Source of the DNA: a bacterium HR35
Lineage (GTDB): Bacteria; Patescibacteriota; Minisyncoccia; UBA6257; HR35
Length of the DNA: 64,000 nt
Assembly: GCA_002898235.1 (NCBI GenBank)
Contig: BEIL01000001.1
Coordinates: 16,034 to 80,033, forward strand
Reading direction: 5' to 3'
Shown: one piece after another, positions 11,787 through 52,480 of the stretch
Position numbering within the stretch: position 1 is the stretch's first letter
Layout: the number at the start of each line of letters is the position of its first letter
Notes under the pieces: generated by a model
The model's database searches: none
What the model saw: only the letters and a program-made list of their open reading frames with translations
What the model was told of the DNA's origin: nothing
Made by a program: the position numbers and the translations under genes

Positions 11787-14700
11787 ATGAAAAGAAAATA
11801 CTTTGGATTAACATTTTTGGTCTTAATTCCTTTGTTTTTTTCCATTTCTCAATCATCTCCTGTTTCTTTAATTAGTTCTTTTCCTAGTTCTGTTAGAGTT
11901 TACGAAAAATTTGAAATTAAATTTAATGTTAATACTGCAGCAGAAAATTATTTTTTTTCTTATGATGAAAATCCTCCTGCTGGAGTAAAACCTAAAATAG
12001 GTGTTAGTGTAGATGGTATTTTTTATCATGTAGAATCTGGAAAAACATATACTCAACCAGCCTTTTGGACAGTTGAAGTTATTCGAAGTGGATCGGGTAG
12101 AAATATGATTTTTGAGGAAACAAATAAATCTTATTGGGTTTTAAGATTTTCTCCACAAAAAACAGGAACTTATAAAGTGTCTATTAGAGTAAAGGATAAA
12201 AATCAAGATGTGACCACTTACATTGGTCAATTTACAGCTTTAACGCCGATTAGAAAAGGATTTATTGGTGTAAGCAAATCAGATCCAAGATACTTTGAAT
12301 TTTCTAACGGAGAATTATACTTTCCTATTGGGCCAGCTTGGTATGATAATAAATCTAGTAATCCGAATGCAAGTTTTGGTTATTCCCAATACATTGGAAC
12401 AGGATTGAATTATGAAAGAATATGGTTAGCTGGCATTGGAGCTTACTCTACTAATTTTGCTCGTTGGATAAGTTCAGCTGAAAGAATGGGTAATGAAGGT
12501 TATATGACTTTATTTGCTTATGATAATGGAACTGGAGAAAAAGTCCCCACCTATGGAGAGCTTTCTTATCCTCTTTTTTATCCAGATGGTTTTAGGTTTT
12601 GGCTAACAACTTGGGGCAATGAAATGTTAGGACCAAGATTGAAAGCTGGTCAAAAATATCGAGTAGAAATTGTTTATAAAACTTCTAATATTTCTGGTCC
12701 AAGAGTTTCTGGTTATCCTTATGGTTTTGTTGTAAAAGCAGGAACTCCTGATATTATGTGGCGCCAACACACGATTAGTGAATTTGAATCTTTTATGAGA
12801 AATTCTCCTAATCAAATTCTCTTTCCTTACGATAATCAAAATCATACTTGGCGAACTGCTACCTATGAATTTACGGCTACTCAAGGCTGGCAAAATATTT
12901 ATCTTTATTTAGATAATGTTTCGAATGGTCAAGTCTATATTTATAAATTTTCAATTAAACCAGTTTTGAGCGATGGTAGTTTAGGCGGTGAAGTTATTAG
13001 AAATCCAATAGCCGACCAACATACTTATGTTGATCCTCGGGGAGCAGCTTTTATTGATTGGTTAGTAGAAGAAGCAGAAAAGGCAGGAGTCTATCTTCAA
13101 TTAGTTGTTCATGATAAAAATGATGCTATTCAAAATAGACTCAAGATGGATGGCACTTGGACAGATATTTTTAAAGGAGATGGATATTACCAACCTGAAA
13201 ATACTAAAGCTAGGTGGCTCTTAAGACAATGGTATAGATATTTAGCAGCTAGGTGGGGATATTCACCAAATATTTTTGCTTGGGAATTAAACAACGAAGG
13301 ACCACCCGATGAAGATCCGCCAGGAAGCGGAACATCCCCTCACTGGAGAACAGCTCAAGCTTTTGCTCAGTTTATGCATACTGTTGATTCTCACCCTCAT
13401 TTAGCTTCTACTTCATTCTGGTGTTGTTGGCGACCTCAATTTTGGGGTAATAATACTTATTTCCCAGATATTAATTATGCCGATGTTCATGAATATACTA
13501 ACAATCCTCAAGTAGCTCCTCAAAATTATACTTATGATGAAGTTTCCTTTATTTACTCTTTAGGAGTTAATACTGCTAAAGATAATGTTGGCAAGCCAGT
13601 TCTTATAGGGGAGCATGGAATTAGTGGAAGCAATTGGATGCCTGTTTCTGAACTTCAACAACCTAATTCTGGTGTTTATTATCACAATATGCTTTGGGCT
13701 CAACTTAATTCTGCTCAAATTTTTGCTCCGGATTATTGGTATTCTGACCATTTGAGATATATTAATCGAGAAGAAATAAGTAAACCATTTGCTAAATTCG
13801 TAAGTAACCTTGATGTAAATAAAGGAGGTTATGTTAATTTGCAAGCCTCTGTTTCTAATTCTAAACTTAGAGTTTTAGGGCAAAAAAATCTTTACCTTAA
13901 TAAAGCTTATGGTTGGATTCAAAATACTGATTATACCTGGTACAACGCTTATCGAAATTACTATACTTATCAATCAGGTCAAGTTAGGATTAAATTAAAT
14001 CCAAATTATGATTATCTAATTGAATGGTGGGATACTTACACTGGAGTTACTTCGACTCAAACTCAAAGAAGCGATTACCAAGGATATGTCACTTTAAATA
14101 TTAATAATCTTAAAACCGATGTTGCTTTCAAAATTTATCCTCTTTCAGGTTCTACTCCTTCTTATCCTCCACTTTCTGTTTCTTGTTCAGCTTCTCCTAA
14201 TCCAGCTAATATCAATCAAACAGTAACCTTTACTGCTTCAGTTTCTGGAGGTACAGGTTCTTATACTTATTCTTGGTCAGGAGCTTGTTCTGGTTCTTCT
14301 TCAACTTGTTCAACTTCCTTCTCTTCAGCTGGAACTTATACTGCTAACTTAACTGTTACTTCAGGTTCAGAAACAAAATCAACTTCTTGTTCAGTAAATG
14401 TTCAAGTTCCTCAACCAGCACCTCTACCAACTGTTGATCTTAAAGTCAATAACTCTGATGGTCCAATTTCGATTACAGTTCCAACTTCAATTACTCTTAG
14501 CTGGACTTCTCAAAATGCTTCCTCTTGTACTGCTTCAGGTTCTTGGTCTGGTTCAAAATCAACTTCAGGTTCTCAATCAATCTCTCTTTCTTCAGCTGGA
14601 ACTTACAATTATACTTTAACTTGCACTAATTCTTCTGGTTCTGCTTCTGATTCAGTAACCGTTAATGCTCAATCAGCATCAATCATAATTAATCAAACAA

Positions 14701-17700
14701 CAACCACTGTTACTAAAGCTTATACGATTTCTAATACTAATCGAGATGCAGAATCAATTGGAACCAGAATCTATACTCTTCCTTCGTCAGCTCCTTGGGG
14801 CCAAATGTATTTAGGTTATGATAGATATACTTCCGGTAAAGTTTACGATGGCGGTTGGATTTTTGAAACTGATATACCCAAAGGAGCTAAAATTGTTTCT
14901 TCAACTTTAACTTTAACAGCTAATTCAGACAACTACGGACCAATTAAACTCACAGGTTATTGGTATGGTTATGCTACTAGTAATCCTCCTGATTTTGTTA
15001 ATGGTTATTCTGGAAAAAGAATCTCCACCATTTATCCTCGAACATCTAATTATGTTTACCAATCGTTTTATGTAGTTAGTCAAGGACAAAAAATTATCTC
15101 CTCTAATTTAGCTAAAATTGTTCAAGAAATAGTAAATAGACCAGACTTTAAGGGAAAAATAGGATTAACTTTTAGAACTACAAATTCAAGCAACGTTTGG
15201 CAATCCTGGATAGATTATTCAGATGATCCAGCAAATTCAGCTATTCTCACAGTAGTTTATGAGGTTACTTCTACTCCTTCTTATCCTCCACTTTCTGTTT
15301 CTTGTTCAGCTTCTCCTAATCCAGCTAATATCAATCAAACAGTAACCTTTACTTCTTCAGTTTCTGGAGGTACAGGTTCTTATACTTATTCTTGGTCAGG
15401 AGCTTGTTCTGGTTCTTCTTCAACTTGTTCAACTTCCTTCTCTTCAGCTGGAACTTATACTGCTAACTTAACTGTTACTTCAGGTTCAGAAACAAAATCA
15501 ACTTCTTGTTCAGTAAATGTTCAAGTTCCTCAACCAGCACCTCTACCAACTGTTGATCTTAAAGTCAATAACTCTGATGGTCCAATTTCGATTACAGTTC
15601 CAACTTCAATTACTCTTAGCTGGACTTCTCAAAATGCTTCCTCTTGTACTGCTTCAGGTTCTTGGTCTGGTTCAAAATCAACTTCAGGTTCTCAATCAAT
15701 CTCTCTTTCTTCAGCTGGAACTTACACCTATACTTTAACTTGCACTAATTCTTCTGGTTCTGCTTCTGATTCAGTGACTGTTAATGCTCAATCAGCACCT
15801 ACACCAACAACGACAACTTTTGAGGAATGGACTCAATTTGCTCATGATCCTATGAGAACCTCCTATACTCCTCAGTTTGTCTCACCTCCTTGGAAATGGA
15901 AATGGAGTTGGAATGGTCCAGATGCTAATGGTAATCCTGTACCAGGTAAATTTAGATTGCCAAGAAACTCTCAACCAATTACTGGAGGGGGAAGAGTTTA
16001 TATAGCTGCTGGTTCAAGAGGAGTTTATGCTCTTAATAATTCAAATGGTTCTGTTATTTGGAATGTAAATCCAGGTGGAGCTCGAATTGATTCAACTCCA
16101 GCTTATGACCCTCAAACAGATGCTCTTTTTGTTCTTTCTTCTAATGGAACACTTTATAAACTTAATGCTAGTAATGGCTCTATTTTAGCTTCTTATTCTT
16201 CAGGACAAACAATTCCTAAAGGAGAAACAAATTTTCAAGACCCTAATCAAACCCTTCCTTTGCCTCCTCTTCTTTACGGAAATAGAGTTTACTTTGTAGC
16301 TGGTACTAAAATGTTTGCTCTTGATAAAAATAATCTTTCGGTTGTTTGGTCCTATGATTCCGGTGGTTCTCCATTTGTTACTCCAGTTGCCTATTCTCCT
16401 TCCTATAATAGATTAGTAGCTGTTACTCGAGATTTATATGTCAATGCTGTTGATGCTAATAGTGGTTCGCTTGTTTGGAGAACTAAACCGACAATAAGAA
16501 ATTATGGTGATCCAGGAGAGAATAATCAAACTTTAGCTCAAGCTGAATATGGCTGGCCTGTTATTGCTGAAAGAACCGGTTTAGTACTAATCAAATATAG
16601 ATTAGATTGGAATGCTCTTTTTAATCCTTTTAGTCCCTGGCCAACTGATAATGCTACCATAAGAGCTGGTTTAGAACAAAATCCTCAATATCAAGCTTTG
16701 TTTGCTTTAAGACTTTCTGATGGTTCAAAAGCTTTTACTGCTAATATTGGTCACGGAGGTTGGGGAGATGGCGGTTATCTACCAATGGGAAATATTCCAG
16801 CAGTTAAAAGCTTTCCCGATGGCTCTGAAGTTGCTTATCTTGTTATCAGAGGTCATCAAGCAATGGATGGTCGTTGGGATTCACTTTACGGAGAATTAGT
16901 CTTAGACAATAGCAATTCCAACTTTCAACCAGGTTATGTTAGATGGATTCAATATGGAAATTATGGTTGGTATAATCCTCCATTAAGCAATATTATGGTA
17001 CCGCCTACTGACGAACAACCTTATGTCATTATAGCTGGTAATTATTTATTCGGAGGTCACTGGATATTAGGTCAAGCTTTAGAAATAAAAGACCGCTCTT
17101 CTAATCTTGGCACTTATACTAACCCAATTAAATCAGCACCTCTTCCACATATTGTTGAATCAACTAATTTAGTACCTTACAATAGTTCTCATTATTCAGA
17201 TAGTATGATTGCTGCTACTGCTGGAGGAACTGAGTGGCGAGCTGTTCCTTATGGTTTTTACATTTATAACGATTCAGTTGGAAAAATTTATGATCAATAT
17301 TGGTCTGGTTATGCTACTTGGATAGTTAGCAATAATACTATTTACTTTCTTTCTACTGATGGAGCTTTAGTAGCTTTGGAGCAAGGTAATCCCACCCAAT
17401 TAACCGAAACAAGAAAAATCGTAATAAACGAAAATCTAATAAAAAACATTTCTTCTCTTGCTTCCCGTTTATTAGCACAAATTTCTCCTTCTAAACCTAT
17501 AGAAATTCAACCAGAAGATATATCTAAAAATTTTACTGAACTTTTAAATAAAGAAGTACTTTTAAGAGGAAAAATAATAAAAGTGGTTGCTAACCATCAT
17601 GGAACATTTATAAAACTCCACCAAACTCCGTATTCACCAACAATAATCATCAAACCTGATGTTTATTCTGAATTTTCAAAACCACCTTTTGAAATTTTCA

Positions 17701-17798
17701 AACCAGGAATGAATATTAAAGTAAAAGGAATATTGACTTATTATCGCGGAGATCCAGCAATTTATATAACCAATCCATCTCAAATTCTTTCCGAATAA
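11787..17798 (+). CDS. giant secreted multidomain protein: N-terminal beta-sandwich, GH clan-A-like catalytic domain, two PKD/Ig-like module pairs, PQQ-like beta-propeller, C-terminal OB-like domain
   Basis: Signal peptide. Clan GH-A-like acid/base and nucleophile motifs (FAWELNNEGPP and VLIGEHG). Two copies of a PKD-like pair (SCSASPNPANINQTVTFT..GGTGSYTYSW). Repeated propeller blades (RVYIAAGSRGVYALNNSNGSVIW; NRVYFVAGTKMFALDKNNLSVVW; LYVNAVDANSGSLVW). 2003 aa. Confidence 0.6.
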   Translation: MKRKYFGLTFLVLIPLFFSISQSSPVSLISSFPSSVRVYEKFEIKFNVNTAAENYFFSYDENPPAGVKPKIGVSVDGIFYHVESGKTYTQPAFWTVEVIRSGSGRNMIFEETNKSYWVLRFSPQKTGTYKVSIRVKDKNQDVTTYIGQFTALTPIRKGFIGVSKSDPRYFEFSNGELYFPIGPAWYDNKSSNPNASFGYSQYIGTGLNYERIWLAGIGAYSTNFARWISSAERMGNEGYMTLFAYDNGTGEKVPTYGELSYPLFYPDGFRFWLTTWGNEMLGPRLKAGQKYRVEIVYKTSNISGPRVSGYPYGFVVKAGTPDIMWRQHTISEFESFMRNSPNQILFPYDNQNHTWRTATYEFTATQGWQNIYLYLDNVSNGQVYIYKFSIKPVLSDGSLGGEVIRNPIADQHTYVDPRGAAFIDWLVEEAEKAGVYLQLVVHDKNDAIQNRLKMDGTWTDIFKGDGYYQPENTKARWLLRQWYRYLAARWGYSPNIFAWELNNEGPPDEDPPGSGTSPHWRTAQAFAQFMHTVDSHPHLASTSFWCCWRPQFWGNNTYFPDINYADVHEYTNNPQVAPQNYTYDEVSFIYSLGVNTAKDNVGKPVLIGEHGISGSNWMPVSELQQPNSGVYYHNMLWAQLNSAQIFAPDYWYSDHLRYINREEISKPFAKFVSNLDVNKGGYVNLQASVSNSKLRVLGQKNLYLNKAYGWIQNTDYTWYNAYRNYYTYQSGQVRIKLNPNYDYLIEWWDTYTGVTSTQTQRSDYQGYVTLNINNLKTDVAFKIYPLSGSTPSYPPLSVSCSASPNPANINQTVTFTASVSGGTGSYTYSWSGACSGSSSTCSTSFSSAGTYTANLTVTSGSETKSTSCSVNVQVPQPAPLPTVDLKVNNSDGPISITVPTSITLSWTSQNASSCTASGSWSGSKSTSGSQSISLSSAGTYNYTLTCTNSSGSASDSVTVNAQSASIIINQTTTTVTKAYTISNTNRDAESIGTRIYTLPSSAPWGQMYLGYDRYTSGKVYDGGWIFETDIPKGAKIVSSTLTLTANSDNYGPIKLTGYWYGYATSNPPDFVNGYSGKRISTIYPRTSNYVYQSFYVVSQGQKIISSNLAKIVQEIVNRPDFKGKIGLTFRTTNSSNVWQSWIDYSDDPANSAILTVVYEVTSTPSYPPLSVSCSASPNPANINQTVTFTSSVSGGTGSYTYSWSGACSGSSSTCSTSFSSAGTYTANLTVTSGSETKSTSCSVNVQVPQPAPLPTVDLKVNNSDGPISITVPTSITLSWTSQNASSCTASGSWSGSKSTSGSQSISLSSAGTYTYTLTCTNSSGSASDSVTVNAQSAPTPTTTTFEEWTQFAHDPMRTSYTPQFVSPPWKWKWSWNGPDANGNPVPGKFRLPRNSQPITGGGRVYIAAGSRGVYALNNSNGSVIWNVNPGGARIDSTPAYDPQTDALFVLSSNGTLYKLNASNGSILASYSSGQTIPKGETNFQDPNQTLPLPPLLYGNRVYFVAGTKMFALDKNNLSVVWSYDSGGSPFVTPVAYSPSYNRLVAVTRDLYVNAVDANSGSLVWRTKPTIRNYGDPGENNQTLAQAEYGWPVIAERTGLVLIKYRLDWNALFNPFSPWPTDNATIRAGLEQNPQYQALFALRLSDGSKAFTANIGHGGWGDGGYLPMGNIPAVKSFPDGSEVAYLVIRGHQAMDGRWDSLYGELVLDNSNSNFQPGYVRWIQYGNYGWYNPPLSNIMVPPTDEQPYVIIAGNYLFGGHWILGQALEIKDRSSNLGTYTNPIKSAPLPHIVESTNLVPYNSSHYSDSMIAATAGGTEWRAVPYGFYIYNDSVGKIYDQYWSGYATWIVSNNTIYFLSTDGALVALEQGNPTQLTETRKIVINENLIKNISSLASRLLAQISPSKPIEIQPEDISKNFTELLNKEVLLRGKIIKVVANHHGTFIKLHQTPYSPTIIIKPDVYSEFSKPPFEIFKPGMNIKVKGILTYYRGDPAIYITNPSQILSE
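14155..14676 (+). repeat. copy 1 of a roughly 520 bp direct repeat (PKD/Ig module pair) inside the 2003 aa gene
   Basis: Near-identical to 15272-15793, with only about 5 substitutions. The copies are 1117 nt apart. The six-frame track shows the same minor ORF twice (14398-14619 and 15517-15738), differing by 1 aa. Confidence 0.85.
15272..15793 (+). repeat. copy 2 of the roughly 520 bp direct repeat
   Basis: See copy 1. Confidence 0.85.
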
Positions 17799-27187: not shown

Positions 27188-29182
27188 ATGAAAAAGAAAG
27201 TGTTTTTGCCTTTAATAATTTTATTAGGAATATTTGTTTTATTAATATTACAGAATTATGAAAATTTAAGTATCAAAGAAAAGTTGAATATTAAATTAAA
27301 AACAAGAGAAGCTCTTAAGATTTGCGATAATCTTTCAGAAGAACAAAAAGAAAGCTGTTATTGGAATCTTGCTAAATCTAAACAAAATTTATCGATTTGT
27401 GACAAGATTCAAAGAGAATGGATAAAAAATATCTGTTATTTGGATGTTGCTGAAGAAAAACAAGATTTATCTATTTGCGATAGAATACAGGATAAGACTA
27501 AAAAGGACTATTGTTATTTAAAAATTGCTGAGATGAAAAGGGACCCATCTATCTGTAACAAAATTCAAAATGAGGAAGAGGAAAGCTATGACGGAGATAA
27601 TAAGTATTTTAAAGATAATTGTTATTTAAAAATTGCACAAGCTAAACAAGATTTATCCATTTGTGATAGAATAAAGAATTCTTCCGTAAAAGATGATTGT
27701 TATAAATTACTTGCTATAATTAAACAAGATTTATCCATTTGTGATAAGTTATATTATTCAAATGAAAAAGACTATTGTTATTCAAGAGTTGCGCAAGTTA
27801 AACAAGATCCATCTATTTGCAATAAGATTGTTTGTAGTGAAATAAGTTCGTGGGATTGGTGTTTTAAAGATTTTTGTTATCAAAATATTGCTCAAACTAA
27901 AAAAGATGTATCTTTTTGTGAAAATATTAGAAATTTTTTATATGGAAAAAGTTTTTGCTATCAGGTAATAGGCGAAATTACTCAGAATTTATCTATTTGT
28001 GACAAAATTAGGGATGAAGAAAGAAGAGGATGGTGTTATCGATCAATTGCTGTTCTTCAACAAAATGCCTCTCTTTGCGAAAAGATAAACAATGAATACA
28101 TAAGAGATTATTGTTATTGGGACATTGCTTTAAATAATCAGAATCCACTTTTTTGTGAAAAATTGCACAATGAGAAAAATAAAAATCTTTGTTATTTAAA
28201 TGTTACCGAAGCTAAAAAAGAGACAAATTTATCAGAATATTCTAAGATAATTCAAAATTCGTTAGCAGATCAATTTATTGAAATAAGATTGGAAGATTTA
28301 AAAGAAGGGAAAAATAAGATAGGAGGTTTAACGATTGAACGAAAATTTATAACTACTTTAAGAGATGGATATAAGTTTATTATAAATAATTTAAAATATA
28401 TTATTAATTCAACAGGTTTAAACTGCGGTGCCTATCAATGTGGTGAAAGTTTTGAATTAAATATAGTAAAAAATGAAAACGATGATCAATCTCGAGTATT
28501 AAATTTCTGGATATCTGATTATGGAGGAGAAGTTTATTTTTTTAAATATCTAGATTTTATATATTTTATTGGAAGCACCATTGCAAAACCGAGAGGGCTT
28601 TGTTATCCTATTGAAGAGTCTATAATTTATTCAGCTTACAAAGATATGGTCGAAGATGAACAAGGTTTAAGACATACCCCATTATTAATAAAAAAGAATG
28701 GTAAGTTGTATCTTAAAGCAGAGAAAAATTTTTGTTATGAAGATTTTTGCGATTCAGTTTTAGAAAATATTGAGTCTTTAAAAAAAGAAGAGGATTTCTA
28801 TACACCTAAAAATCAGCGTTTTAGATGTTTTTGTTATGATTTTGACGAAACAGCACCCTGTGTTGATGAATATTATTTAATAGACAATGGCAAATTTATA
28901 GAAAGAAATCAAGATTTTAAATCAGAATATCTTGAAAAAGCAGAAAAATTTAAAAAAGAACTTCAGGAAAAACATTGGCAAAATGGTGATTGGATTTTGA
29001 CATTATTAAATAAAACACTAAACTTAATCTTTGCTGGTGAAGAAGAAAAGGCCTGGAGAGAATTTTTTGAAGATTTCCAGAGTCTTTCTCAAGCCTATCC
29101 TTTTGAAGGTATTGAAAAAATAAATCCTGATAAAATAAAAGAAGAAATTCAAAAAAATATAGCTAGAGAAAGTGGGTTTTGA
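27188..29182 (+). CDS. secreted protein with about 11 tandem roughly 30 aa Cys-containing repeats (LSICDKI...DYCY...A..KQD) plus a Cys-rich C-terminal domain
   Basis: Signal peptide. Repeats of the pattern KQ(D/N)LSICD(K/R)I(x7-9)(D/N)xCYxx(I/V)Axx between aa 40 and 330. Confidence 0.5.
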   Translation: MKKKVFLPLIILLGIFVLLILQNYENLSIKEKLNIKLKTREALKICDNLSEEQKESCYWNLAKSKQNLSICDKIQREWIKNICYLDVAEEKQDLSICDRIQDKTKKDYCYLKIAEMKRDPSICNKIQNEEEESYDGDNKYFKDNCYLKIAQAKQDLSICDRIKNSSVKDDCYKLLAIIKQDLSICDKLYYSNEKDYCYSRVAQVKQDPSICNKIVCSEISSWDWCFKDFCYQNIAQTKKDVSFCENIRNFLYGKSFCYQVIGEITQNLSICDKIRDEERRGWCYRSIAVLQQNASLCEKINNEYIRDYCYWDIALNNQNPLFCEKLHNEKNKNLCYLNVTEAKKETNLSEYSKIIQNSLADQFIEIRLEDLKEGKNKIGGLTIERKFITTLRDGYKFIINNLKYIINSTGLNCGAYQCGESFELNIVKNENDDQSRVLNFWISDYGGEVYFFKYLDFIYFIGSTIAKPRGLCYPIEESIIYSAYKDMVEDEQGLRHTPLLIKKNGKLYLKAEKNFCYEDFCDSVLENIESLKKEEDFYTPKNQRFRCFCYDFDETAPCVDEYYLIDNGKFIERNQDFKSEYLEKAEKFKKELQEKHWQNGDWILTLLNKTLNLIFAGEEEKAWREFFEDFQSLSQAYPFEGIEKINPDKIKEEIQKNIARESGF

Positions 29183-36323: not shown

Positions 36324-37604
36324 ATGAAAAAACAAATAGTAATTTTAGGAGGAGGATTTGGTGGTGTTTATACTTTAAAATATTTGCATAAATTTTTTCA
36401 TAAACGCGGACTAAGGCAGACTGAACGCGGACTTACGCAGACAAGTATTAAATTAGTATTGGTGAATAGAAAAAATTATTTTATTTTTACGCCCTTGCTT
36501 CATGAAGTTGTTACTGGTGGAGTTTCAATTGATAATGCTTTAGAACCAATAAGAGAAATTATTAAATGCTGTGATTTTGATTTTATTCATGGAGAAGTTG
36601 AGAAAATTAATTTAGAAAATAAAATTGTTTATATTAATAAAGAAAAAGAAAATTATAAAGTTAATTATGATTATTTAGTTATTGCTTTAGGTTCAAAAAC
36701 AAATTATTATAATATTCCCGGTGCTAAAGAATATACTTTTTCGTTAAAAACAATTGATGATGCTATCAGATTGAAAAATCATTTTGTTCATATGTTTGAA
36801 TTAGCGAGTATATCGCAGAGTGAAGCAGCGATTAATAAATATTTAACTTTTGTAATCGTTGGGGGAGGAGCAACTGGAGTTGAGCTTGCTGGTGAAATGA
36901 GTGATTTGTTTTATAAAACTTTTAGCAAATTTTACCCACCAGCTTTAATTTCTCAAGTTAAAATCATCTTAGTTGAAAAGGGTAAAGAATTGATTCCTCA
37001 ATTTTCTCCCAAATTAAGACAAAAAGCATTAGAAAGATTAAAAAAATTAAAAGTTGATGTTAGATTAGAAAGAGGAGTTGTTGAAGTTGGTGAAGATTTT
37101 ATTAAACTTGATGATGGTAATATTATTGAAACAAAAACAGTTATTTGGGCAGCAGGAGTTGAACCAAATTTACCAGAAATCATTGGCAATGTTGAAAAAG
37201 ACAGTAGAGGGAGATTGGTTTTGAATGAATATTTACAAGTAAAAAATTATAATGATGTTTTTGCTATTGGTGATGTTTGTTGTTTTATTCAGGATCAAAA
37301 ACCTTTACCTCAATTAGCTCAAGTTGCAGTTAGACAAGCAAAAACAGTTGCTTTAAATATTAAAAACTCAATTGAAAATAAACCATTAGAAAAGTTTATC
37401 TACAAGCACACAGGCGACTTAATTTCAGTTGGTAGATTTTATGCTCTGGGTGAAATTAAAGGAATTGAATTTTCAGGTTTAATCAGTTGGTTTATTTGGA
37501 AAGGAGTTTATTTAACTAAAATGATTTCCTTTAGGGATCAAGTAAAAACATTTATTGATTGGTTTTTAAACCTATTTTTACCAAGAGATATAACTGAACT
37601 CTAA
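36324..37604 (+). CDS. ndh: type II NADH dehydrogenase / FAD-dependent pyridine-nucleotide-disulfide oxidoreductase
   Basis: Two Rossmann motifs, VILGGGFGGVY and IVGGGATGVELAGE. Contains a roughly 14 aa atypical insert RGLRQTERGLTQTS just after the first motif. Confidence 0.75.
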   Translation: MKKQIVILGGGFGGVYTLKYLHKFFHKRGLRQTERGLTQTSIKLVLVNRKNYFIFTPLLHEVVTGGVSIDNALEPIREIIKCCDFDFIHGEVEKINLENKIVYINKEKENYKVNYDYLVIALGSKTNYYNIPGAKEYTFSLKTIDDAIRLKNHFVHMFELASISQSEAAINKYLTFVIVGGGATGVELAGEMSDLFYKTFSKFYPPALISQVKIILVEKGKELIPQFSPKLRQKALERLKKLKVDVRLERGVVEVGEDFIKLDDGNIIETKTVIWAAGVEPNLPEIIGNVEKDSRGRLVLNEYLQVKNYNDVFAIGDVCCFIQDQKPLPQLAQVAVRQAKTVALNIKNSIENKPLEKFIYKHTGDLISVGRFYALGEIKGIEFSGLISWFIWKGVYLTKMISFRDQVKTFIDWFLNLFLPRDITEL

Positions 37605-39390: not shown

Positions 39391-40254
39391 ATGATTGAGG
39401 AGTTACACGATAAAAAAGTAAAATTTTTAGAGGAAAAAGCAAACGAAATCCGACAATTAATTATTGATATGCTTTTAGAAGCAGGCTCTGGGCATTCTGC
39501 TGGACCATTGGGAATGGCTGATATTTTTTCAGCTTTTTATTTTCATATTTTGCGTCATGATCCCCAAAATCCTGATTGGCCTGATCGAGATAGATTAATT
39601 TTATCTAATGGTCATATTTGTCCTGTTCGTTATGCTGCTATGGCGCTTGCTGGTTATTTTCCAGTTGAAGAATTAAAAACATTAAGAAAAATTAATACTC
39701 GTCTTCAAGGCCATCCTCATCGAACAACACTTCCAGGAGTTGAAACTTCTTCTGGCCCTTTAGGTGAAGGAATTTCTCAAGCAATCGGCATTGCTTATGC
39801 TGGAATTTTAGATAAAAAAGATTATCATGTTTATTGTATTACTTCTGATGGCGAGCATCAAGAAGGAAATACTTGGGAAGCTTATATGTGGCTTGGTAAA
39901 AATCCTTTACCGAATTTAACAATTATTATTGATCGAAATTACATTCAAATTGATGGAGTAACAGAAGACGTTATGCCCCTTGAACCATTAAAACAAAAAT
40001 TAGAAGCTTTTGGTCTTCATGTTTTAGAAGTTGATGGTCATAATATCAGAGCTTTTGTTGATGCAGTTAGAACAGCAAGGTCAGAATGGAGAAGGACCTC
40101 GGTTATTATTGCTTATACAATTCCAGGTAAAGGAGTAAGTTTTATGGAAAAGAAATTTGAATGGCACGGCAAACCACCAAACAAAGAAGAAGCCAAAAAA
40201 GCCTTAGATGAACTAAGAACATTAGGAGGAAAAATAACTAGTGAGCATCAATAA
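39391..40254 (+). CDS. transketolase, N-terminal (TPP-binding) subunit of a split enzyme
   Basis: SGHSAGPLGMADIF, GPLGEGIS, and HQEGNTWEAY. 287 aa. Confidence 0.8.
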   Translation: MIEELHDKKVKFLEEKANEIRQLIIDMLLEAGSGHSAGPLGMADIFSAFYFHILRHDPQNPDWPDRDRLILSNGHICPVRYAAMALAGYFPVEELKTLRKINTRLQGHPHRTTLPGVETSSGPLGEGISQAIGIAYAGILDKKDYHVYCITSDGEHQEGNTWEAYMWLGKNPLPNLTIIIDRNYIQIDGVTEDVMPLEPLKQKLEAFGLHVLEVDGHNIRAFVDAVRTARSEWRRTSVIIAYTIPGKGVSFMEKKFEWHGKPPNKEEAKKALDELRTLGGKITSEHQ

Positions 40255-40342: not shown

Positions 40343-41632
40343 ATGAGTTGGCTTATGGAAAAAAAGTATATTTTGATAGTATTATTTTTGCTTTTCTTGG
40401 GGCTAGTTTTAATTAAGCAAACAAAAATTAGAGCAGAAATCGCTTATTTTTATCCTCAAAGTTGTTTAGGAAGTTTTATTAATCCTGAAAAAGCCCAAGG
40501 AAAGCCCGAAGTTGATAATCCTGATTTAATAAATGAATCAAATTCTGCTGTTTATTTAGGCGGTTTTAAAGAAATTTATTGTGGAAATTTTCAAGGACCA
40601 GAAGTACAAGGCGAAATAAAGAAAATAACATTACATTTTAATTGGATTGTTACTAAAGAAAGGAGAGAAGCAGTTCTAACTGAACCAACCTCAACAAACG
40701 ATTCAAATATTTTAGAAAAAATTATTCCTCCGAAAACAATAGAAATAATACCAGCAACTCCAACAACTGAAACAGCACCTTTACCAAATACCACTCCAAC
40801 ACCAGAAGCAACCTCGACACCTCAGTCATCTTTTAACACGGATTCACGCGGATTATTATTACACGGATATACACGGAAATTATTTAACCTAGATAAAAAT
40901 TATCTAGATATCTTATTTTGGTGGAAAACAACTTTTGCTGAAGAAATGGCAACACCAATAGAATCGACAACACCTACAACCTTAACAACAACTCCATCAG
41001 AAGCTCAAAATCAATCAACTGAAACTCAATCAATAATAATTACAACAACTCCTACATCTACAGAAAATCAAACCGAAACAACCTCTTCTACTACAAGTAC
41101 TGAAGCATTGACTACTCCAACAACCTCAGAAACAACTTCATTAACAACCTCAACTCCTCCTAAAACTCTATTTGAAGTCCATTACACTTTGGATGGTGAA
41201 AATTGGACTTATCTTGGAGATATTAAAACGCAGACTAACGCAGACAACACGCAGACTAACGCAGACAACTATTTTATTCCCGATGTTTCTTTTGAAATAC
41301 CAGTAAATAATTGGCTTGATATTTCAAAAATTCAAATAAAAATCAATTCTTTACCTGATACTGACTACTATCTTTATTTAGAATCAATGTGGTTTGAAGT
41401 TGAATATGAACTTCCGCAAGCAACATCAACTATTTCAGAAATAACAAATTTTGTTGGTGGCACTATAAGTTCTTTAACAGAAAATTTTTCTAATGATACT
41501 TCTACATTGTCAGAAACCTCAACATCTTATGGCGAAGATGATGAAGAAATTTTAACTCCAACAAATTTAGAAAATGCTACTCCTACTCCTCATTACCTCC
41601 TCTTAAACAAAGAAAATATACTAAAGAAATAA
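40343..41632 (+). CDS. secreted Thr/Ser/Pro-rich (mucin-like) surface protein
   Basis: N-terminal signal anchor and long T/S/P low-complexity linkers. Contains in-frame short repeats (40836-40878 and 41228-41269). Confidence 0.4.
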   Translation: MSWLMEKKYILIVLFLLFLGLVLIKQTKIRAEIAYFYPQSCLGSFINPEKAQGKPEVDNPDLINESNSAVYLGGFKEIYCGNFQGPEVQGEIKKITLHFNWIVTKERREAVLTEPTSTNDSNILEKIIPPKTIEIIPATPTTETAPLPNTTPTPEATSTPQSSFNTDSRGLLLHGYTRKLFNLDKNYLDILFWWKTTFAEEMATPIESTTPTTLTTTPSEAQNQSTETQSIIITTTPTSTENQTETTSSTTSTEALTTPTTSETTSLTTSTPPKTLFEVHYTLDGENWTYLGDIKTQTNADNTQTNADNYFIPDVSFEIPVNNWLDISKIQIKINSLPDTDYYLYLESMWFEVEYELPQATSTISEITNFVGGTISSLTENFSNDTSTLSETSTSYGEDDEEILTPTNLENATPTPHYLLLNKENILKK

Positions 41633-47534: not shown

Positions 47535-48581
47535 ATGAATTTAAAAAATTTTTTCAATGTTGTTTTAATAATTTTCTTCTCGTTTTTATTACTTTATGCT
47601 TTTAATTATTTAAAATCTGCAGGTGTAACTATTAAAGCTTTTGTGCCTGGAGTTTGTGGCAATAATCTTAAAGAACCAGGAGAAGAATGTGATGGTCCTG
47701 ATTTAGGAGGTCAAAGCTGCGTTTCTTTAGGTTATTCAGGAGGAACTTTGTCTTGTAATTCTAATTGTACTTTTAATGCTTCACAATGCACTATCTCCCC
47801 GCCAAGTGGAGGAGGCGGAGGCGGTGGAGCATATATACCTCCTTATGGAACAGTTATTCTTTCAGGAAGAGCCCAACCAAATTCTGATGTTACTTTAATT
47901 TCAGATGGCCAAATAAGAACAATTATCAAAGCTGATACTGATGGAAAATTTAAATTTACTCTTTCCAACCTAACCCCAGGCAATTATATTTTTACTTTAT
48001 ATGCTGAAGATACTGAGGGAAGAAGGACAAGCTTACATTCAGTTCCAGCAGTAGTTACCGCAGGTCTTACAATTGAAATAGGTAATATTTTTCTTTCACC
48101 AACAATTGATATTGATAAAATACAAGTTAAGCGTGGAGATATTTTAAGAATTTTTGGTCAAACAGCTCCTGATTCTAATGTTTTGATTGTTGTTTCTTCT
48201 GAAGAAGAATTATATTTTCAAACTCAAGCAGAAAAAGATGGAAGTTATTTATATGCCTTAGATACTACAATTTTAGATTATGGCCAGCATTTTACAAAAT
48301 CAAGATCAATTTTAGCCAATCAATTAGTTAGTTCTTTTTCAAAAGCTTTAGCATTTCAGGTTTCAACAACTTCGGTAGTTAAAAAACCAACAAAATGTCC
48401 ATTAAAAGGTGATTTAAACAATGATTGCAGAGTAAATTTGATTGATTTTTCAATTGCTGCTTATTGGTATAAAAGAAAATTAAGTCCAAATTTTGCTAAA
48501 ATTGAAAAAGAGAAATTAAACGGAGATGGAAAGGTCGATTTGGTTGATTTTAGTATTATGGCGTATTGGTGGACGGGATAA
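47535..48581 (+). CDS. dockerin-containing surface protein (N-terminal signal anchor, Cys-rich repeat, Gly linker, Ig-like region, C-terminal dockerin)
   Basis: Two dockerin-type Ca-binding segments, DLNNDCRVNLIDFSIAAYW and LNGDGKVDLVDFSIMAYW. A CGNNLKEPGEECDGPDLGGQSC Cys-rich repeat. Confidence 0.55.
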   Translation: MNLKNFFNVVLIIFFSFLLLYAFNYLKSAGVTIKAFVPGVCGNNLKEPGEECDGPDLGGQSCVSLGYSGGTLSCNSNCTFNASQCTISPPSGGGGGGGAYIPPYGTVILSGRAQPNSDVTLISDGQIRTIIKADTDGKFKFTLSNLTPGNYIFTLYAEDTEGRRTSLHSVPAVVTAGLTIEIGNIFLSPTIDIDKIQVKRGDILRIFGQTAPDSNVLIVVSSEEELYFQTQAEKDGSYLYALDTTILDYGQHFTKSRSILANQLVSSFSKALAFQVSTTSVVKKPTKCPLKGDLNNDCRVNLIDFSIAAYWYKRKLSPNFAKIEKEKLNGDGKVDLVDFSIMAYWWTG

Positions 48582-48584
48582 TAG

Positions 48585-48800
48585 ATGTTTCGCGAGTTGG
48601 CTTTTATATATCGCACACACGCCTATGAGCACCGGCACTCAACTTCCTCCAGCGGCAAGTTGGTGCCTCGTGGTCTCGGCTCAAAAACTTTGCCATCTGC
48701 TGAAAGCAGACTGGCAAAGACCAAGCTTTTTAAGCCTCCGACACGTGCTCTACGGCGTGGTGCTCGACAAAATGTCTGCGTCAGTCTGCGTTTTATACAA
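48585..48800. other. 220 bp GC-rich (about 50% GC) intergenic element with internal inverted repeats
   Basis: Sharp composition jump versus flanks. Hairpin potential in GGCACTCAACTT...AAGTTGGTGCC and GCAGACTG...CAGTCTGC. Ends with GTCTGCGTCAGTCTGCGTT, the reverse complement of the ACGCAGAC motif seen in in-frame insertions elsewhere. Confidence 0.5.
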
Positions 48801-48802
48801 AA

Positions 48803-49621
48803 ATGGCAAAAATTTATTTACAAATAGATAAGGAAGTGAATACTAATTATTTCACAGTTCCTATTTATCTTGACACCGAAGGTGAATCAGTTAATGCTTT
48901 TGAAGTGAAGATAAAAACATCTAACAATTTGATTTTTAGAGATTATTTAGAAAAAGATTCAATTATTAGTTATTGGATTGAAAAACCTTCAATTAAAGAA
49001 AATATTTTGTCATTTTCAGGAATTACTCCAGGTGGTTATATTGGTAAAAAGGGTTTGTTGGTAAATTTAATTTTTGAAGCTAAACAAAACGGACAAGCTT
49101 TTATTGAAATTTTACCTTCATCACAAATTTTACTAAACGATGGTTTAGGAACTAAGGCAGGATTAAAAACAGATAGATATGAATTTTTGTTAAATATTAC
49201 TCAAACTCAAAAAATAAGCATTGAAGACCGTTATCCTCCAGAACCATTTAAAATTTATCCTCAAAGAAATAAGGAAATTTTTAACAATAAGTATTACATT
49301 ATTTTTGAGGCTAAAGATAAACAATCAGGTATAGCTTATTATGAAGCTGCTGAAGTTCCTATCTGTATAAATCTAGGTTTAACCTGCGAAAATCCTCGTT
49401 TTGAAAAAGTCTCATCTCCATATCTTTTAAAAGATCAATCTTTAAGAAGCTATATTTATGTTAAAGCAGTTGATCGAGCAGGAAATGAAAGAATTGAAAT
49501 TTTAAAACCACAAAGATTGTTTTTAGCTGAAGAAATTTTGTTTTTCTTTATTTTTAGTAGTTTGTTTATTTTAGGAATCATTTTTTATAATAAAATTAAA
49601 TGGCATTTAAGAATAAAATAA
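48803..49621 (+). CDS. cohesin-like domain protein with C-terminal TM anchor; N-terminal signal peptide apparently missing
   Basis: Cohesin-like N-domain aligns with that of the next gene (AKIYLQIDKEVNTNYFTVPIYLDT vs ASIYLSPAQKTVNVGDSFSIVVYVES, then LVNLIFEAKQNGQAFIEIL...LLNDGLG). An Ig-like ...SGIAYY...VDRAGN domain. The ORF begins exactly at the mature-domain boundary, immediately after the GC-rich element. Confidence 0.45.
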   Translation: MAKIYLQIDKEVNTNYFTVPIYLDTEGESVNAFEVKIKTSNNLIFRDYLEKDSIISYWIEKPSIKENILSFSGITPGGYIGKKGLLVNLIFEAKQNGQAFIEILPSSQILLNDGLGTKAGLKTDRYEFLLNITQTQKISIEDRYPPEPFKIYPQRNKEIFNNKYYIIFEAKDKQSGIAYYEAAEVPICINLGLTCENPRFEKVSSPYLLKDQSLRSYIYVKAVDRAGNERIEILKPQRLFLAEEILFFFIFSSLFILGIIFYNKIKWHLRIK

Positions 49622-51303: not shown

Positions 51304-51322
51304 TTAATTTATAATATAAATA

Positions 51323-52480
51323 ATGCTTAATCCAGAATTAAAATTGAATCCAAAAATTTTTGATGAAGATATTGAGCAAAAGCCAATTAGAGATGGTTAT
51401 AGTGATGCTTTGGTTGAGCTTGGAGAAAAAAATCCTGATGTTGTTGTTTTAACTGCTGATTTAGCTGAATCAACCAGAGCTCATAAATTTGCCGAAAAAT
51501 TTCCTGAAAGATTTATTGAATGCGGAGTGGCTGAACAAAATATGGCTGGTATTGCTGCTGGTTTAGGTGTAAGTGGTAAAATTGCTTTTATTTCCTCTTA
51601 TGCAACTTTTTCTCCTGGCAAAAATTGGGAAACAATTAGAACAACAATAATTTATAATGATTCAAATGTAAAAATTGCCGGTCATCATTCAGGAATTGTT
51701 ACTGGTCCTGATGGTGCCACTCATCAAGCAACCGAAGATATAGCTATTATGAGATGCTTACCGAATGTTAGAATAATTTCTCCTTGTGACTTTTGGGAAG
51801 CAAAAAAAGCAACTTTATATTCAGCAGAAGTTTATGGTCCTTTTTATATTAGATATGTAAGAGATAAAACACCTATAATAACAACAGAAGAAACACCTTT
51901 TAGATTTGGAAAAATTGAAGAATTCTGGATACCAAACACAGACCATACACGGACTATACACGGACAGAACAGACAAAATAATAAGTCCGAACAGTCTGAG
52001 TCTAGTCCGAATCAGTCCGTGTTAAGTCCAAACAAGTCCGTGTCTAGTCCGAACAAGTCCGTGAGTATGCAGAATAACGCAGATAAAAATATAGTTGCTA
52101 TTTTTGCAACTGGACATCTAGTTTATCAGGCACTTTTGGCTGCTAAAGAATTAGAAGAGGAGGGAATAGATGTTTATGTTTTGAATGTTCATACAATAAA
52201 ACCACTTGATGTTGAAAAAATTTTTGAAATTGCAAAAAAAGTTAGAGGAATAGTTACTTTAGAAGACCACCAAGTTCAAGGAGGAATGGGAAGCGCAATT
52301 AGTGAAGCTTTAATGAATATTGATTTTCAAAAACAATATGGCCTTTTTTCTGTTCCTCCGATTAAATTTTTAGGACTTCAAAATACTTTTGGTGAATCGG
52401 GCAAACCCAATGAATTAATTCAAAAATATGGAATGGATAAAGAGGCAGTAAAAAAGGCGGTTTATGAGTTTCTTAAATGA
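51323..52480 (+). CDS. transketolase, C-terminal subunit of a split enzyme, with a roughly 50 aa low-complexity in-frame insertion
   Basis: Pyrimidine-binding and C-terminal transketolase domains (FIECGVAEQNMAGIAAG, GPDGATHQATEDIAIMR). Insertion PNTDHTRTIHGQNRQNNKSEQSESSPNQSVLSPNKSVSSPNKSVSMQNNADKN at nt 51935-52090. Confidence 0.8.
   Translation: MLNPELKLNPKIFDEDIEQKPIRDGYSDALVELGEKNPDVVVLTADLAESTRAHKFAEKFPERFIECGVAEQNMAGIAAGLGVSGKIAFISSYATFSPGKNWETIRTTIIYNDSNVKIAGHHSGIVTGPDGATHQATEDIAIMRCLPNVRIISPCDFWEAKKATLYSAEVYGPFYIRYVRDKTPIITTEETPFRFGKIEEFWIPNTDHTRTIHGQNRQNNKSEQSESSPNQSVLSPNKSVSSPNKSVSMQNNADKNIVAIFATGHLVYQALLAAKELEEEGIDVYVLNVHTIKPLDVEKIFEIAKKVRGIVTLEDHQVQGGMGSAISEALMNIDFQKQYGLFSVPPIKFLGLQNTFGESGKPNELIQKYGMDKEAVKKAVYEFLK

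What the first reader, a model, noticed from the sequence alone, without database searches (positions are those of the whole stretch)
51935..52090. About 150 nt in-frame repetitive insertion with inverted CACGGAC / GTCCGTG repeats inside the transketolase C-terminal subunit gene
A conserved metabolic enzyme carries a 53 aa hydrophilic low-complexity insert (…HTRTIHGQNRQNN…SPNKSVSSPNKSV…). It is encoded by DNA with atypical, GC-richer codons. The DNA consists of forward CACGGAC units followed by several reverse-complement AGTCCG(A/T)(A/G) units, a palindromic repeat arrangement typical of a miniature inserted element rather than protein evolution. The reading frame is preserved.
Basis: seen in the sequence. 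Interest (0 to 1): 0.65.

Follow-up and report, generated by a model that had tools for sequence, protein, structure and literature searches.

The report
In-frame repeat-array insert in transketolase
A 150-base block of short inverted DNA repeats sits in frame in a surface linker of a transketolase gene; it belongs to a repeat family common in ultrasmall (Patescibacteria) bacteria whose full-length copies carry a nuclease gene in frame inside many housekeeping genes, and I found no published description of it.

Summary
The transketolase C-terminal subunit gene (51323..52480, +) of 'bacterium HR35' carries a 150-nt, 50-codon insert (51935..52084). A syntenic relative lacks it.

The insert has four forward units (CACRGAC), a 9-nt loop, eight reverse units (AGTCCG) and two more forward units, spaced 10-11 nt. 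It is GC-rich, folds better than shuffles, and is identical in two independent assemblies. It replaces a 6-8 aa inter-domain linker and is predicted disordered.

It is one instance of a wider pattern. The same units form arrays in at least two other genes in the window. In related Parcubacteria the same transketolase site holds anything from 2 units to a whole GxxExxY (PF13366, PD-(D/E)XK) nuclease ORF. That ORF is in frame and flanked by forward arrays upstream and reverse arrays downstream.

Among 85 nuclease copies from Patescibacteria genomes, 81 lie in ORFs too long to be free-standing. Hosts include RecG, LepA, SecA, GatB, AsnB and NDH-2. Inverted arrays flank 54 of the 85 copies.

Best reading: the insert is a nuclease-less member or remnant of a selfish, in-frame element family. 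It resembles Rickettsia palindromic elements and the intein niche but belongs to neither. How it moves is inferred, not shown. I found no published description.

The parts
51323..52480 (+). Host gene: C-terminal subunit of a split transketolase (385 aa)
   Evidence: Pfam Transket_pyr and Transketolase_C. Best PDB match is 6yaj, the split transketolase C-chain, E 3e-70. 100% identical to the NCBI protein of 'bacterium HR35'.
51935..52084 (+). The insert: 150 nt, 50 codons, in frame, between CCA (51932-51934) and AAAAAT (52085-52090)
   Evidence: Boundaries come from the empty site in syntenic relative L087 and partial sites in L003 and L004. AF2 pLDDT < 50 for aa 208-253.
51937..51974 (+). Forward array of four units (CACAGAC, CACGGAC, CACGGAC, AACAGAC), start-to-start spacing 11, 11, 9 nt
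   Evidence: The identical 7-mer CACGGAC is read in two different frames (T-R-T and H-G-Q), so the conservation is at nucleotide level.
51975..51983 (.). AT-rich centre/loop (AAAATAATA). In full-length relatives the nuclease ORF sits between the forward and reverse arrays.
51984..52063 (+). Reverse array of eight units (AGTCCG/AGTCTG/AGTCCA), equal to two tandem 42-nt four-unit modules. Specific to HR35 among its closest relatives.
   Evidence: TRF period 21 x 3.9 copies and period 42 x 2.0 copies. AGTCCG positions. Absent from L004 and L003.
52067..52084 (+). Two forward units (ATGCAGAA, AACGCAGAT), an older remnant shared with the closest relatives
   Evidence: CAGACTAACGCAGAYAAAAAT is conserved in L003 and L004 at the same place.
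36405..36442 (+). Same unit family: four forward units (CGCGGAC/GGCAGAC), in frame in the NDH-2 gene 36324..37604
   Evidence: Insertion relative to many homologues, and the site after 'LHKFFH' is a hot spot.
40836..40884 (+). Same unit family: four forward units of CACGGAT type, in ORF 40343..41632
41229..41266 (+). Same unit family: four forward units (ACGCAGAC; 21-nt dimer repeated at 100% identity), in frame in ORF 40343..41632 (peptide KTQTNADNTQTNADN)
48774..48792 (+). Two reverse units (GTCTGCGTCAGTCTGCGTT) in the intergenic region. In relative L001 the same slot holds a free-standing GxxExxY gene with flanking arrays.
39391..40254 (+). Partner gene: N-terminal (thiamine diphosphate-binding) subunit of the split transketolase
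   Evidence: Pfam Transketolase_N, E 8e-57.

Best explanation
The insert is a nuclease-less member, or decayed remnant, of a family of selfish DNA elements that is common in Patescibacteria.

The building block is an array, canonically of four units. Each unit is a 5-7 nt G+C-rich core (CGGAC, CAGAC, CGGAT or CGAAC, depending on the genome), and units repeat every 10-11 bp, about one helical turn. A full element has a forward array, a GxxExxY PD-(D/E)XK nuclease ORF and a reverse array. It sits in frame in a loop of a host gene, so the nuclease is translated as part of the host protein.

In HR35 only arrays are present at the transketolase site: four forward units, eight reverse units, and an older two-unit remnant.

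Shown here: the repeat is conserved at DNA level. The insert is lineage-specific and in frame. It replaces a short inter-domain linker and is predicted disordered. The same site and other genes carry the full nuclease-bearing form in relatives.

Inferred: the arrays are the sites through which the nuclease, or a host factor, recognises the element. The element spreads by nuclease-triggered copying (homing or transposition-like). Coding copies survive only where they stay in frame, lack stop codons and fall in tolerant loops. The array-encoded low-complexity peptides then act as flexible linkers.
For: The insert and its anatomy.

The same units occur in NDH-2 and in ORF 40343 in the window.

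The transketolase site varies among homologues from a 6-8 aa linker to about 200 aa. Inserts start with P-R-I-N-A-D-type peptides and end with …SV-type peptides, which are the forward and reverse units translated. 26 homologues carry PF13366 there.

At DNA level, L002 has CGGAT units forward upstream and reverse downstream of the in-frame nuclease ORF. L001 has the same layout with GCGAAC units.

Among 85 nuclease copies in 84 loci, units per 150 nt average 2.74 forward and 0.12 reverse upstream, and 0.35 forward and 2.15 reverse downstream. Background is 0.33 and 0.26. 54 of 85 have at least 2 forward units upstream and at least 2 reverse downstream; 5 of 85 show the opposite pattern.

Unit spacing peaks at 10, 11 and 21 nt. 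Forward runs stop at exactly four units: 30 runs of four and none longer.

81 of the 85 copies lie in ORFs too long to be free-standing (4 classed as free), most of them 700-1000 aa. Hosts are RecG 39, LepA 26, transketolase 3 and others 13. Pfam independently confirmed RecG, LepA, AsnB, GatB and Wzy_C as hosts.

Presence/absence among close relatives: L087 is empty, L003 has 2 units, L004 has 4+2, HR35 has 4+8+2, and L001 has the full element. The nuclease is in NDH-2 of KatS3mg094 (P0153) but in the transketolase of KatS3mg095 (P0004).

Unit type tracks nuclease similarity: 0.78 share a type at >= 80% identity and 0.04 below 50%.

The insert sits in a linker and is predicted disordered.
Against: No GxxExxY gene lies in the 64-kb window, and I could not read the rest of the HR35 genome. 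A cognate nuclease in this organism is therefore unproven.

No target-site duplication or sharp element ends could be defined at the transketolase site.

Forward-only arrays (NDH-2, ORF 40343) and the lone block of eight reverse units do not follow simply from deleting the centre of a palindromic element.

Array-only elements are so dense in some genomes (L002) that part of the nuclease-array association could arise from the nuclease gene landing in pre-existing arrays.

The link between unit type and nuclease similarity is confounded by shared ancestry of the genomes.

Nothing here shows binding, cleavage, mobility or translation of the insert.
Confidence: 0.62

Rival explanations
1. The arrays are landing pads, not element ends. 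Palindromic four-unit arrays spread or arise by another route, such as a host-encoded factor or repair-templated copying. The GxxExxY nuclease gene is a separate homing gene that cuts and inserts at the centre of such arrays. On this reading the HR35 insert is an unoccupied site, not a remnant.
For: Array-only elements far outnumber nuclease-bearing ones in L002. The nuclease ORF always lies exactly between the forward and reverse arrays. The window has five arrays and no nuclease. Forward-only arrays exist.
Against: Both arms of one element share the same unit variant. Unit type co-varies with nuclease similarity. The free-standing nuclease gene in L001 carries its own flanking arrays. Neither point is decisive, because both models make the arrays the sequence that the nuclease recognises.
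Confidence: 0.2
2. This is an ordinary low-complexity expansion. Replication slippage of a short tandem repeat in a tolerant linker produced the insert, and no mobile element is involved.
For: The reverse block is two tandem 42-nt modules. The array at 41229 is a 21-nt unit repeated at 100% identity. That pattern suggests local duplication contributes to array length.
Against: Slippage does not produce reverse-complement blocks next to forward ones. It does not place the same unit in unrelated genes and in intergenic DNA. It does not explain the consistent forward-upstream, reverse-downstream arrangement around a nuclease ORF in 54 of 85 loci. A 10-11 nt period is not a multiple of three, so the repeat is not maintained at protein level.
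Confidence: 0.06
3. The insert is an intervening sequence removed after transcription. The inverted arrays pair in the mRNA and guide excision and religation, so the mature enzyme lacks the insert.
Against: At the 81 nuclease copies that lie in long ORFs, arrays, nuclease and host gene form one uninterrupted ORF through both junctions. That would be unnecessary if the segment were spliced out. Intergenic copies are not stop-free, so the open frames in genes look like the result of selection on translation. No intron RNA family matches the elements. Spacers pair poorly, 58%.
Confidence: 0.05
4. The insert is an adaptive linker or a regulatory feature of this enzyme, for example one that tunes subunit assembly or translation pausing, and it is kept for the host's benefit.
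For: The gene is intact and its flanks are conserved. The insert is identical in two samples.
Against: Length and sequence at the site differ widely even among relatives with 85-90% identical proteins. The same DNA units are read in different frames and orientations, so no consistent peptide is conserved. The region is predicted disordered.
Confidence: 0.05
5. The insert is an assembly or binning artefact.
For: It is repetitive, compositionally odd sequence in a metagenome-assembled genome.
Against: The gene DNA is identical in the NCBI MAG and in independent Logan assemblies of two runs. Related inserts occur at the same site in dozens of other assemblies.
Confidence: 0.01

Closest known systems
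Rickettsia palindromic elements (RPEs)
   Same: Both are short palindromic repeats of about 100-150 bp. Both are inserted in frame in unrelated housekeeping genes of a small, AT-rich genome, add a peptide segment that the protein fold tolerates, and also occur in intergenic DNA (review PMC10969869; Ogata et al. 2000, from my own knowledge).
   Different: The taxon differs and there is no sequence relationship. RPEs are defined consensus sequences that encode a conserved peptide. Here the element is a phased array of 5-7 nt cores with variable spacers, read in several frames, so no conserved peptide results. The cores differ between genomes. A nuclease-encoding full-length form exists, whereas to my knowledge no autonomous partner is known for RPEs.
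Inteins and other homing-endonuclease elements in conserved genes
   Same: A nuclease gene lives in frame inside conserved proteins. It sits between highly conserved motifs: after DEQHRFGV in RecG and between GITIK and DTPGH in LepA. It recurs at the same site across many lineages, and related nucleases tend to share a host gene (59 of 85 against 32% by chance).
   Different: There is no Hint/splicing domain. Only PF13366 and the host domains are detected. The insert therefore presumably stays in the mature protein. The nuclease is PD-(D/E)XK of the GxxExxY family, not LAGLIDADG or HNH. The inverted repeat arrays have no counterpart in inteins.
REP/BIME elements and their RAYT transposase (REPtrons)
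   Same: A small nuclease-type gene is flanked by short repeats in inverted orientation. The same repeats are scattered through the genome in much larger numbers without the gene, and repeat sequence and protein diverge together (from my own knowledge).
   Different: RAYTs are HUH/Y1 transposases acting on hairpin REPs, and they are extragenic. Here the protein has a PD-(D/E)XK fold, the repeats are four-unit phased arrays rather than single hairpins, and most copies are intragenic and in frame.
[quoted passage not shown]
   Same: The insert is small, non-coding by itself, has inverted arms and has relatives elsewhere in the genome.
   Different: No target-site duplication was found. There is no DDE-transposase parent. 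Copies share units rather than a full-length consensus.
PARCELs (palindromic amphipathic repeat coding elements; PMC2996958)
   Same: Both are intragenic repeats whose DNA has dyad symmetry, with a patchy distribution that suggests mobility (abstract seen; the remaining details are from my own knowledge).
   Different: PARCELs are repeats of about 25 residues defined at protein level, found in surface proteins of unknown function. They are not 10-11 nt DNA-level units inserted into housekeeping enzymes.

Membership tests
GxxExxY-associated phased-array elements (the family proposed here) | Arrays of a G+C-rich core repeated every 10-11 nt, canonically four units | tested here: met
   Four forward units at 51937-51974. 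Eight reverse units, equal to two four-unit modules, at 51984-52063. Family-wide spacing peaks at 10, 11 and 21 nt, and forward runs cap at four units.
GxxExxY-associated phased-array elements (the family proposed here) | Forward array followed by reverse array, in the orientation seen around the nuclease ORF | tested here: met
   Forward then reverse relative to the host gene, as in L001 and L002 and in 54 of 85 loci.
GxxExxY-associated phased-array elements (the family proposed here) | GxxExxY (PF13366/TIGR04256) nuclease ORF between the arrays | tested here: not met
   Only a 9-nt loop lies between the arrays. tblastn finds no GxxExxY in the window. The insert is therefore at most a non-autonomous member or a remnant.
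GxxExxY-associated phased-array elements (the family proposed here) | A cognate nuclease elsewhere in the same genome | not testable with these tools
MITE | Terminal inverted repeats on a short non-coding element | tested here: met
   16-nt arms, 94% complementary. Fold z = -4.5.
MITE | Target-site duplication | tested here: inconclusive
   Comparing the filled sites with the empty site shows no direct repeat at the junctions. The site has been hit repeatedly, so the boundaries are blurred.
MITE | Derived from an IS with a transposase that shares its ends | tested here: not met
   The only associated gene is a PD-(D/E)XK nuclease. No transposase gene was seen at the elements examined.
Rickettsia palindromic elements | Membership of one of the RPE sequence families, with a conserved encoded peptide | tested here: not met
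   There is no conserved peptide: the same units are read in different frames and orientations. No direct comparison with RPE consensus sequences was possible here.
Intein | Hint splicing domain with its terminal catalytic residues | tested here: not met
   Pfam finds only Transket_pyr, Transketolase_C and weak hits to related families in HR35. Insert-bearing relatives show only PF13366 plus the host domains.
Group I / group II intron | Ribozyme core detectable by covariance models | tested here: not met
   No Rfam match at E <= 1 over 48400-52300. Only tRNA and 5S matches in 16 nuclease-bearing loci.
Simple tandem repeat (slippage) | Head-to-tail copies of one unit in one orientation at one locus | tested here: not met
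   Both orientations are present, and the same units occur at other loci.

The most novel reading that the evidence does not exclude
Patescibacteria harbour a class of selfish elements that I could not find described. A PD-(D/E)XK (GxxExxY) nuclease gene occupies the intein niche, in frame in loops of essential and housekeeping proteins (RecG, LepA, SecA, GatB, AsnB, NDH-2, transketolase), but has no splicing domain. It is bounded by inverted arrays of four helically phased units of about 10.5 bp. These arrays act as the element's recognition sites, encode its flexible linkers, and also spread on their own. The HR35 transketolase insert is one such array-only copy.
Probability: 0.5. Interest if true: 0.85.

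Novelty: new variant of a known kind. Interest (0 to 1): 0.72.

Why it matters
If the reading holds, three things follow.

First, it explains part of the unusual length variation and the low-complexity segments of conserved proteins in Patescibacteria. That variation affects annotation, alignment and phylogenomics of a large part of the bacterial tree.

Second, it gives a testable function to GxxExxY, a large family of unknown function. The profile search found 23,145 cluster representatives.

Third, it provides a natural example of a nuclease gene that persists in frame inside essential proteins without protein or RNA splicing. This bears on how inteins and domain insertions originate, and it maps natural loop positions that tolerate inserts of 50 to 200 residues.

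For the HR35 enzyme itself the consequence is probably small: a disordered 50-residue linker between two domains.

Tried and rejected
Rfam at permissive thresholds on the insert and its surroundings, and at gathering thresholds on 16 nuclease-bearing loci, found only tRNA and 5S matches. The elements are therefore not introns of a known type or any known RNA family.

tblastn for a GxxExxY gene in the window found none.

I looked for a target-site duplication by aligning filled, partial and empty sites. None was clear.

I tested whether the elements are intrinsically stop-free, as a design for in-frame life. Intergenic copies in L002 are no more open than shuffles, so that idea is rejected.

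I tested whether the arms form a true hairpin. Unit positions are 92% complementary, but spacers only 58%. That favours conservation of units over conservation of a helix, though it is not decisive.

The promoter and terminator scan shows nothing on the coding strand in the insert beyond chance.

Literature searches on GxxExxY, PDDEXK_3, Patescibacteria with in-frame or palindromic insertions, and CPR homing endonucleases in protein genes found no description of these elements. That is absence from the searchable library only. The word-indexed protein search with the nuclease domain returned only 30 free-standing relatives, so it could not serve as a host census.

Full report
**1. What is at the coordinates**

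The window is AT-rich (28.5% GC). It matches 'bacterium HR35', a member of the Parcubacteria/Patescibacteria: the protein is 100% identical to the NCBI entry.

ORF 51323..52480 (+) encodes a 385-aa protein with Transket_pyr (aa 22-183) and Transketolase_C (aa 255-376). This is the C-terminal subunit of a split transketolase. The N-terminal subunit gene is at 39391..40254.

It starts with forward units CACAGAC / CACGGAC / CACGGAC / AACAGAC at 51937-51974. An AT-rich 9-mer follows. Then come eight reverse units (AGTCCG, AGTCTG, AGTCCA) at 51984-52063, spaced 9-11 nt apart. Tandem Repeats Finder resolves the reverse block as two 42-nt modules of four units each. After it come two more forward units, GCAGAATAACGCAGAT, at 52067-52084.

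The best arm pair is 16 nt and 94% complementary. AGTCCG is three times over-represented in the window, 13 against 4.0 expected with no shuffle out of 100 as high, and seven copies lie here. GC rises to 0.45. The segment folds with z = -4.5 against shuffles.

The frame is open throughout. The identical 7-mer CACGGAC is translated once as T-R-T and once as H-G-Q, and AGTCCG alternates between K-S-x and S-S-P. What is repeated is therefore DNA, not peptide.

**2. It is an insertion, it is real, and it sits in a linker**

Most homologues have 6-8 residues at this place, such as 'SENPQ' or 'KPKTEKAE'. The syntenic relative L087 (GCA_017880035) reads …TTTTGGAAACCA|AAAAATGAAAAAGCAGAAGTAGCC…. That places the HR35 insert at 51935..52084, which is 150 nt or 50 codons.

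The closest relatives show intermediate states:
- L003 has only CAGACTAACGCAGAC, two units.
- L004 has four forward units, a spacer, and the same two units.
- HR35 looks like L004 plus about 81-87 nt of reverse units.

Against the solved split transketolase 6yaj, HR35 residues 14-196 and 258-382 align to chain residues 27-209 and 220-335. So 61 residues stand in for 10. An AlphaFold model (pTM 0.84) gives pLDDT < 50 for residues 208-253, between confident strands 199-202 and 258-262.

The whole gene is base-for-base identical in Logan assemblies of two separate runs. It is therefore not an assembly chimera.

**3. The same repeat is elsewhere in the window**

Arrays of the same unit family occur at four other places:
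- 36405-36442: four forward units, in frame in the NDH-2 gene.
- 40836-40884: four forward units in ORF 40343..41632.
- 41229-41266: four forward units, in frame in the same ORF, peptide KTQTNADNTQTNADN.
- 48774-48792: two reverse units in intergenic DNA.

In NDH-2 homologues the site after 'LHKFFH' and at least three other sites are insertion hot spots. They carry forward-only arrays, forward-plus-reverse arrays, or a whole extra domain.

**4. The full-length form carries a nuclease**

Among transketolase homologues, 26 proteins of 484-571 aa carry a PF13366 / TIGR04256 'GxxExxY' domain exactly at the HR35 site.

At DNA level, L002 reads CCACGGATcgatGCGGATtcggaACGGATtaatGCGGAT, then the ORF, then ATCCGC/ATCCGT seven times, ending ATCCGTGG. 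L001 has the same layout with GCGAAC / GTTCGC units. L001 also has a free-standing GxxExxY gene flanked by ACGAAT / ATTCGT arrays. It sits in the very intergenic slot where HR35 keeps two reverse units.

L002 is full of array-only palindromic copies: four forward units, a loop, and four reverse units.

**5. Generality**

A scan of one genome per species with a GxxExxY alignment returned 80 loci, nearly all Patescibacteria. Adding the earlier loci gives 85 nuclease copies.
- 81 of the 85 lie in ORFs too long to be free-standing (4 were classed as free). Most of those ORFs are 700-1000 aa and run through both junctions.
- Hosts are RecG (39, after DEQHRFGV), LepA (26; 25 of them between GITIK and DTPGH), transketolase (3), and SecA, a P-type ATPase, glycosyltransferases and an O-antigen-ligase-like protein.
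- A profile search of 1.84 billion representatives found 23,145 family members. By my count about 104 of the best 150 are longer than 200 aa.
- Pfam on ten of the long ones confirmed RecG, LepA, asparagine synthase, GatB and Wzy_C as hosts.

Units are strongly polarised around the nuclease. Per 150 nt, upstream there are 2.74 forward and 0.12 reverse units. Downstream there are 0.35 forward and 2.15 reverse. Background is about 0.3. 54 of 85 copies show the forward-upstream, reverse-downstream pattern, and 5 show the opposite.

Unit spacing peaks at 10, 11 and 21 nt, and forward runs end at exactly four units.

Nearest-neighbour nucleases share a host gene in 59 of 85 cases, against 32% by chance. 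Unit type follows nuclease similarity. Sibling genomes carry the nuclease in different genes: transketolase in KatS3mg095 and NDH-2 in KatS3mg094.

**6. How it most likely works**

Shown:
- The repeat is maintained at DNA level.
- The insert is lineage-specific, in frame and reproducible across assemblies.
- It lies in a disordered linker.
- A nuclease-bearing form exists at the same and other sites.
- Arrays around the nuclease have a strict polarity.
- The nuclease motifs are intact.
- Most nuclease copies form continuous ORFs with their host genes.

Inferred:
- The arrays are recognition sites. Their one-helical-turn phasing puts the cores on one face of the DNA, which suits cooperative binding.
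- The nuclease promotes copying of the element.
- Translation runs through the element, as it would through an intein, but without splicing.
- Selection keeps only in-frame, stop-free copies in tolerant loops. Intergenic copies are not stop-free.

The HR35 insert is then an array-only member or a remnant, assembled in at least two steps: an older two-unit piece shared with relatives, and the forward-four and reverse-eight blocks.

I put 0.62 on this package. The main rival, at 0.2, is that the arrays are landing pads for a separate homing nuclease gene. Slippage alone, RNA-level excision, an adaptive linker and an assembly artefact are each unlikely, for the reasons given under the rival explanations.

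**7. Comparison with what is known**

The nearest precedent for the HR35 insert itself is the Rickettsia palindromic element: an in-frame palindromic repeat in housekeeping genes of a reduced genome (PMC10969869). The architecture, sequence and taxon differ, and here a candidate autonomous form exists.

The nuclease-bearing form occupies the ecological niche of inteins but lacks a Hint domain. It matches no intron RNA family. The pairing of gene and scattered repeats recalls REP/RAYT, but the protein fold, the repeat design and the intragenic location all differ.

GxxExxY/PDDEXK_3 is listed as 'function unknown' in the PD-(D/E)XK survey (PMC3424549). I found no paper describing these in-frame elements. 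That is not proof that none exists.

**8. Verdict**

The insert itself is a modest feature of one enzyme. It points, however, to a widespread element family that I could not find described in the literature. I rate the novelty as a new variant of a known kind and the interest at 0.72. The most novel reading not excluded by the evidence has a probability of about 0.5.

Noticed in passing
window 48585-48800: An island of roughly 55% GC between ORFs 47535..48581 and 48803..49621. It folds into a long rod on either strand (MFE -82.7 and -86.7 kcal/mol, z about -5) and has no Rfam, tRNA or tmRNA match. The syntenic slot in L087 (7220-7500) is also GC-rich and shares 5' and 3' motifs (GGCTTTTAT…GCAC; GGCGTGGTGCTCG…AAATG). 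It may be an unannotated small RNA or a decayed element.
   Followed up: partly
window 36405-36442, 40836-40884, 41229-41266: Three further four-unit forward arrays of the same repeat family lie inside coding sequence. One is in NDH-2. Two are in an unknown Thr/Pro-rich protein that appears to have an N-terminal hydrophobic segment. No reverse partner is nearby.
   Followed up: partly
L002 11340-11490 (same transketolase gene in a relative): A second insertion hot spot lies near the C-terminal end of the gene (after …SEVLVN). It holds an array-only element of a different unit type (CGAAC forward x5, GTTCG reverse x4) in a genome whose first-site element uses CGGAT. Several other homologues have inserts there as well.
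   Followed up: partly
window about 14296-15772, inside ORF 11787..17798 (2003 aa): A direct duplication with an offset of 1119 nt: identical strings of about 100 nt at 14303 and 15422, and matching TRF rows at 14296/15415 and 14632/15751. It is probably a repeated domain in a giant surface protein.
   Followed up: no
proteins P0272, P0277, P0280 and about 35 others: Many family members are about 260-275 aa and contain two GxxExxY domains in tandem. These could be fused dimers of the nuclease.
   Followed up: no
L040 2873-5458: One glycosyltransferase-like ORF of 862 aa contains two different GxxExxY domains at separate sites, each with its own arrays.
   Followed up: no
L020 2915-5386 (LepA of another Patescibacterium): A single LepA gene carries three array-only inserts plus one nuclease-bearing insert at different loops. 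The array-only inserts include one at the site that holds the nuclease in L010. The load per gene can be high.
   Followed up: no
window 27611-27828: A 78-nt tandem repeat, 2.8 copies and 73% matches, inside ORF 27188..29182.
   Followed up: no
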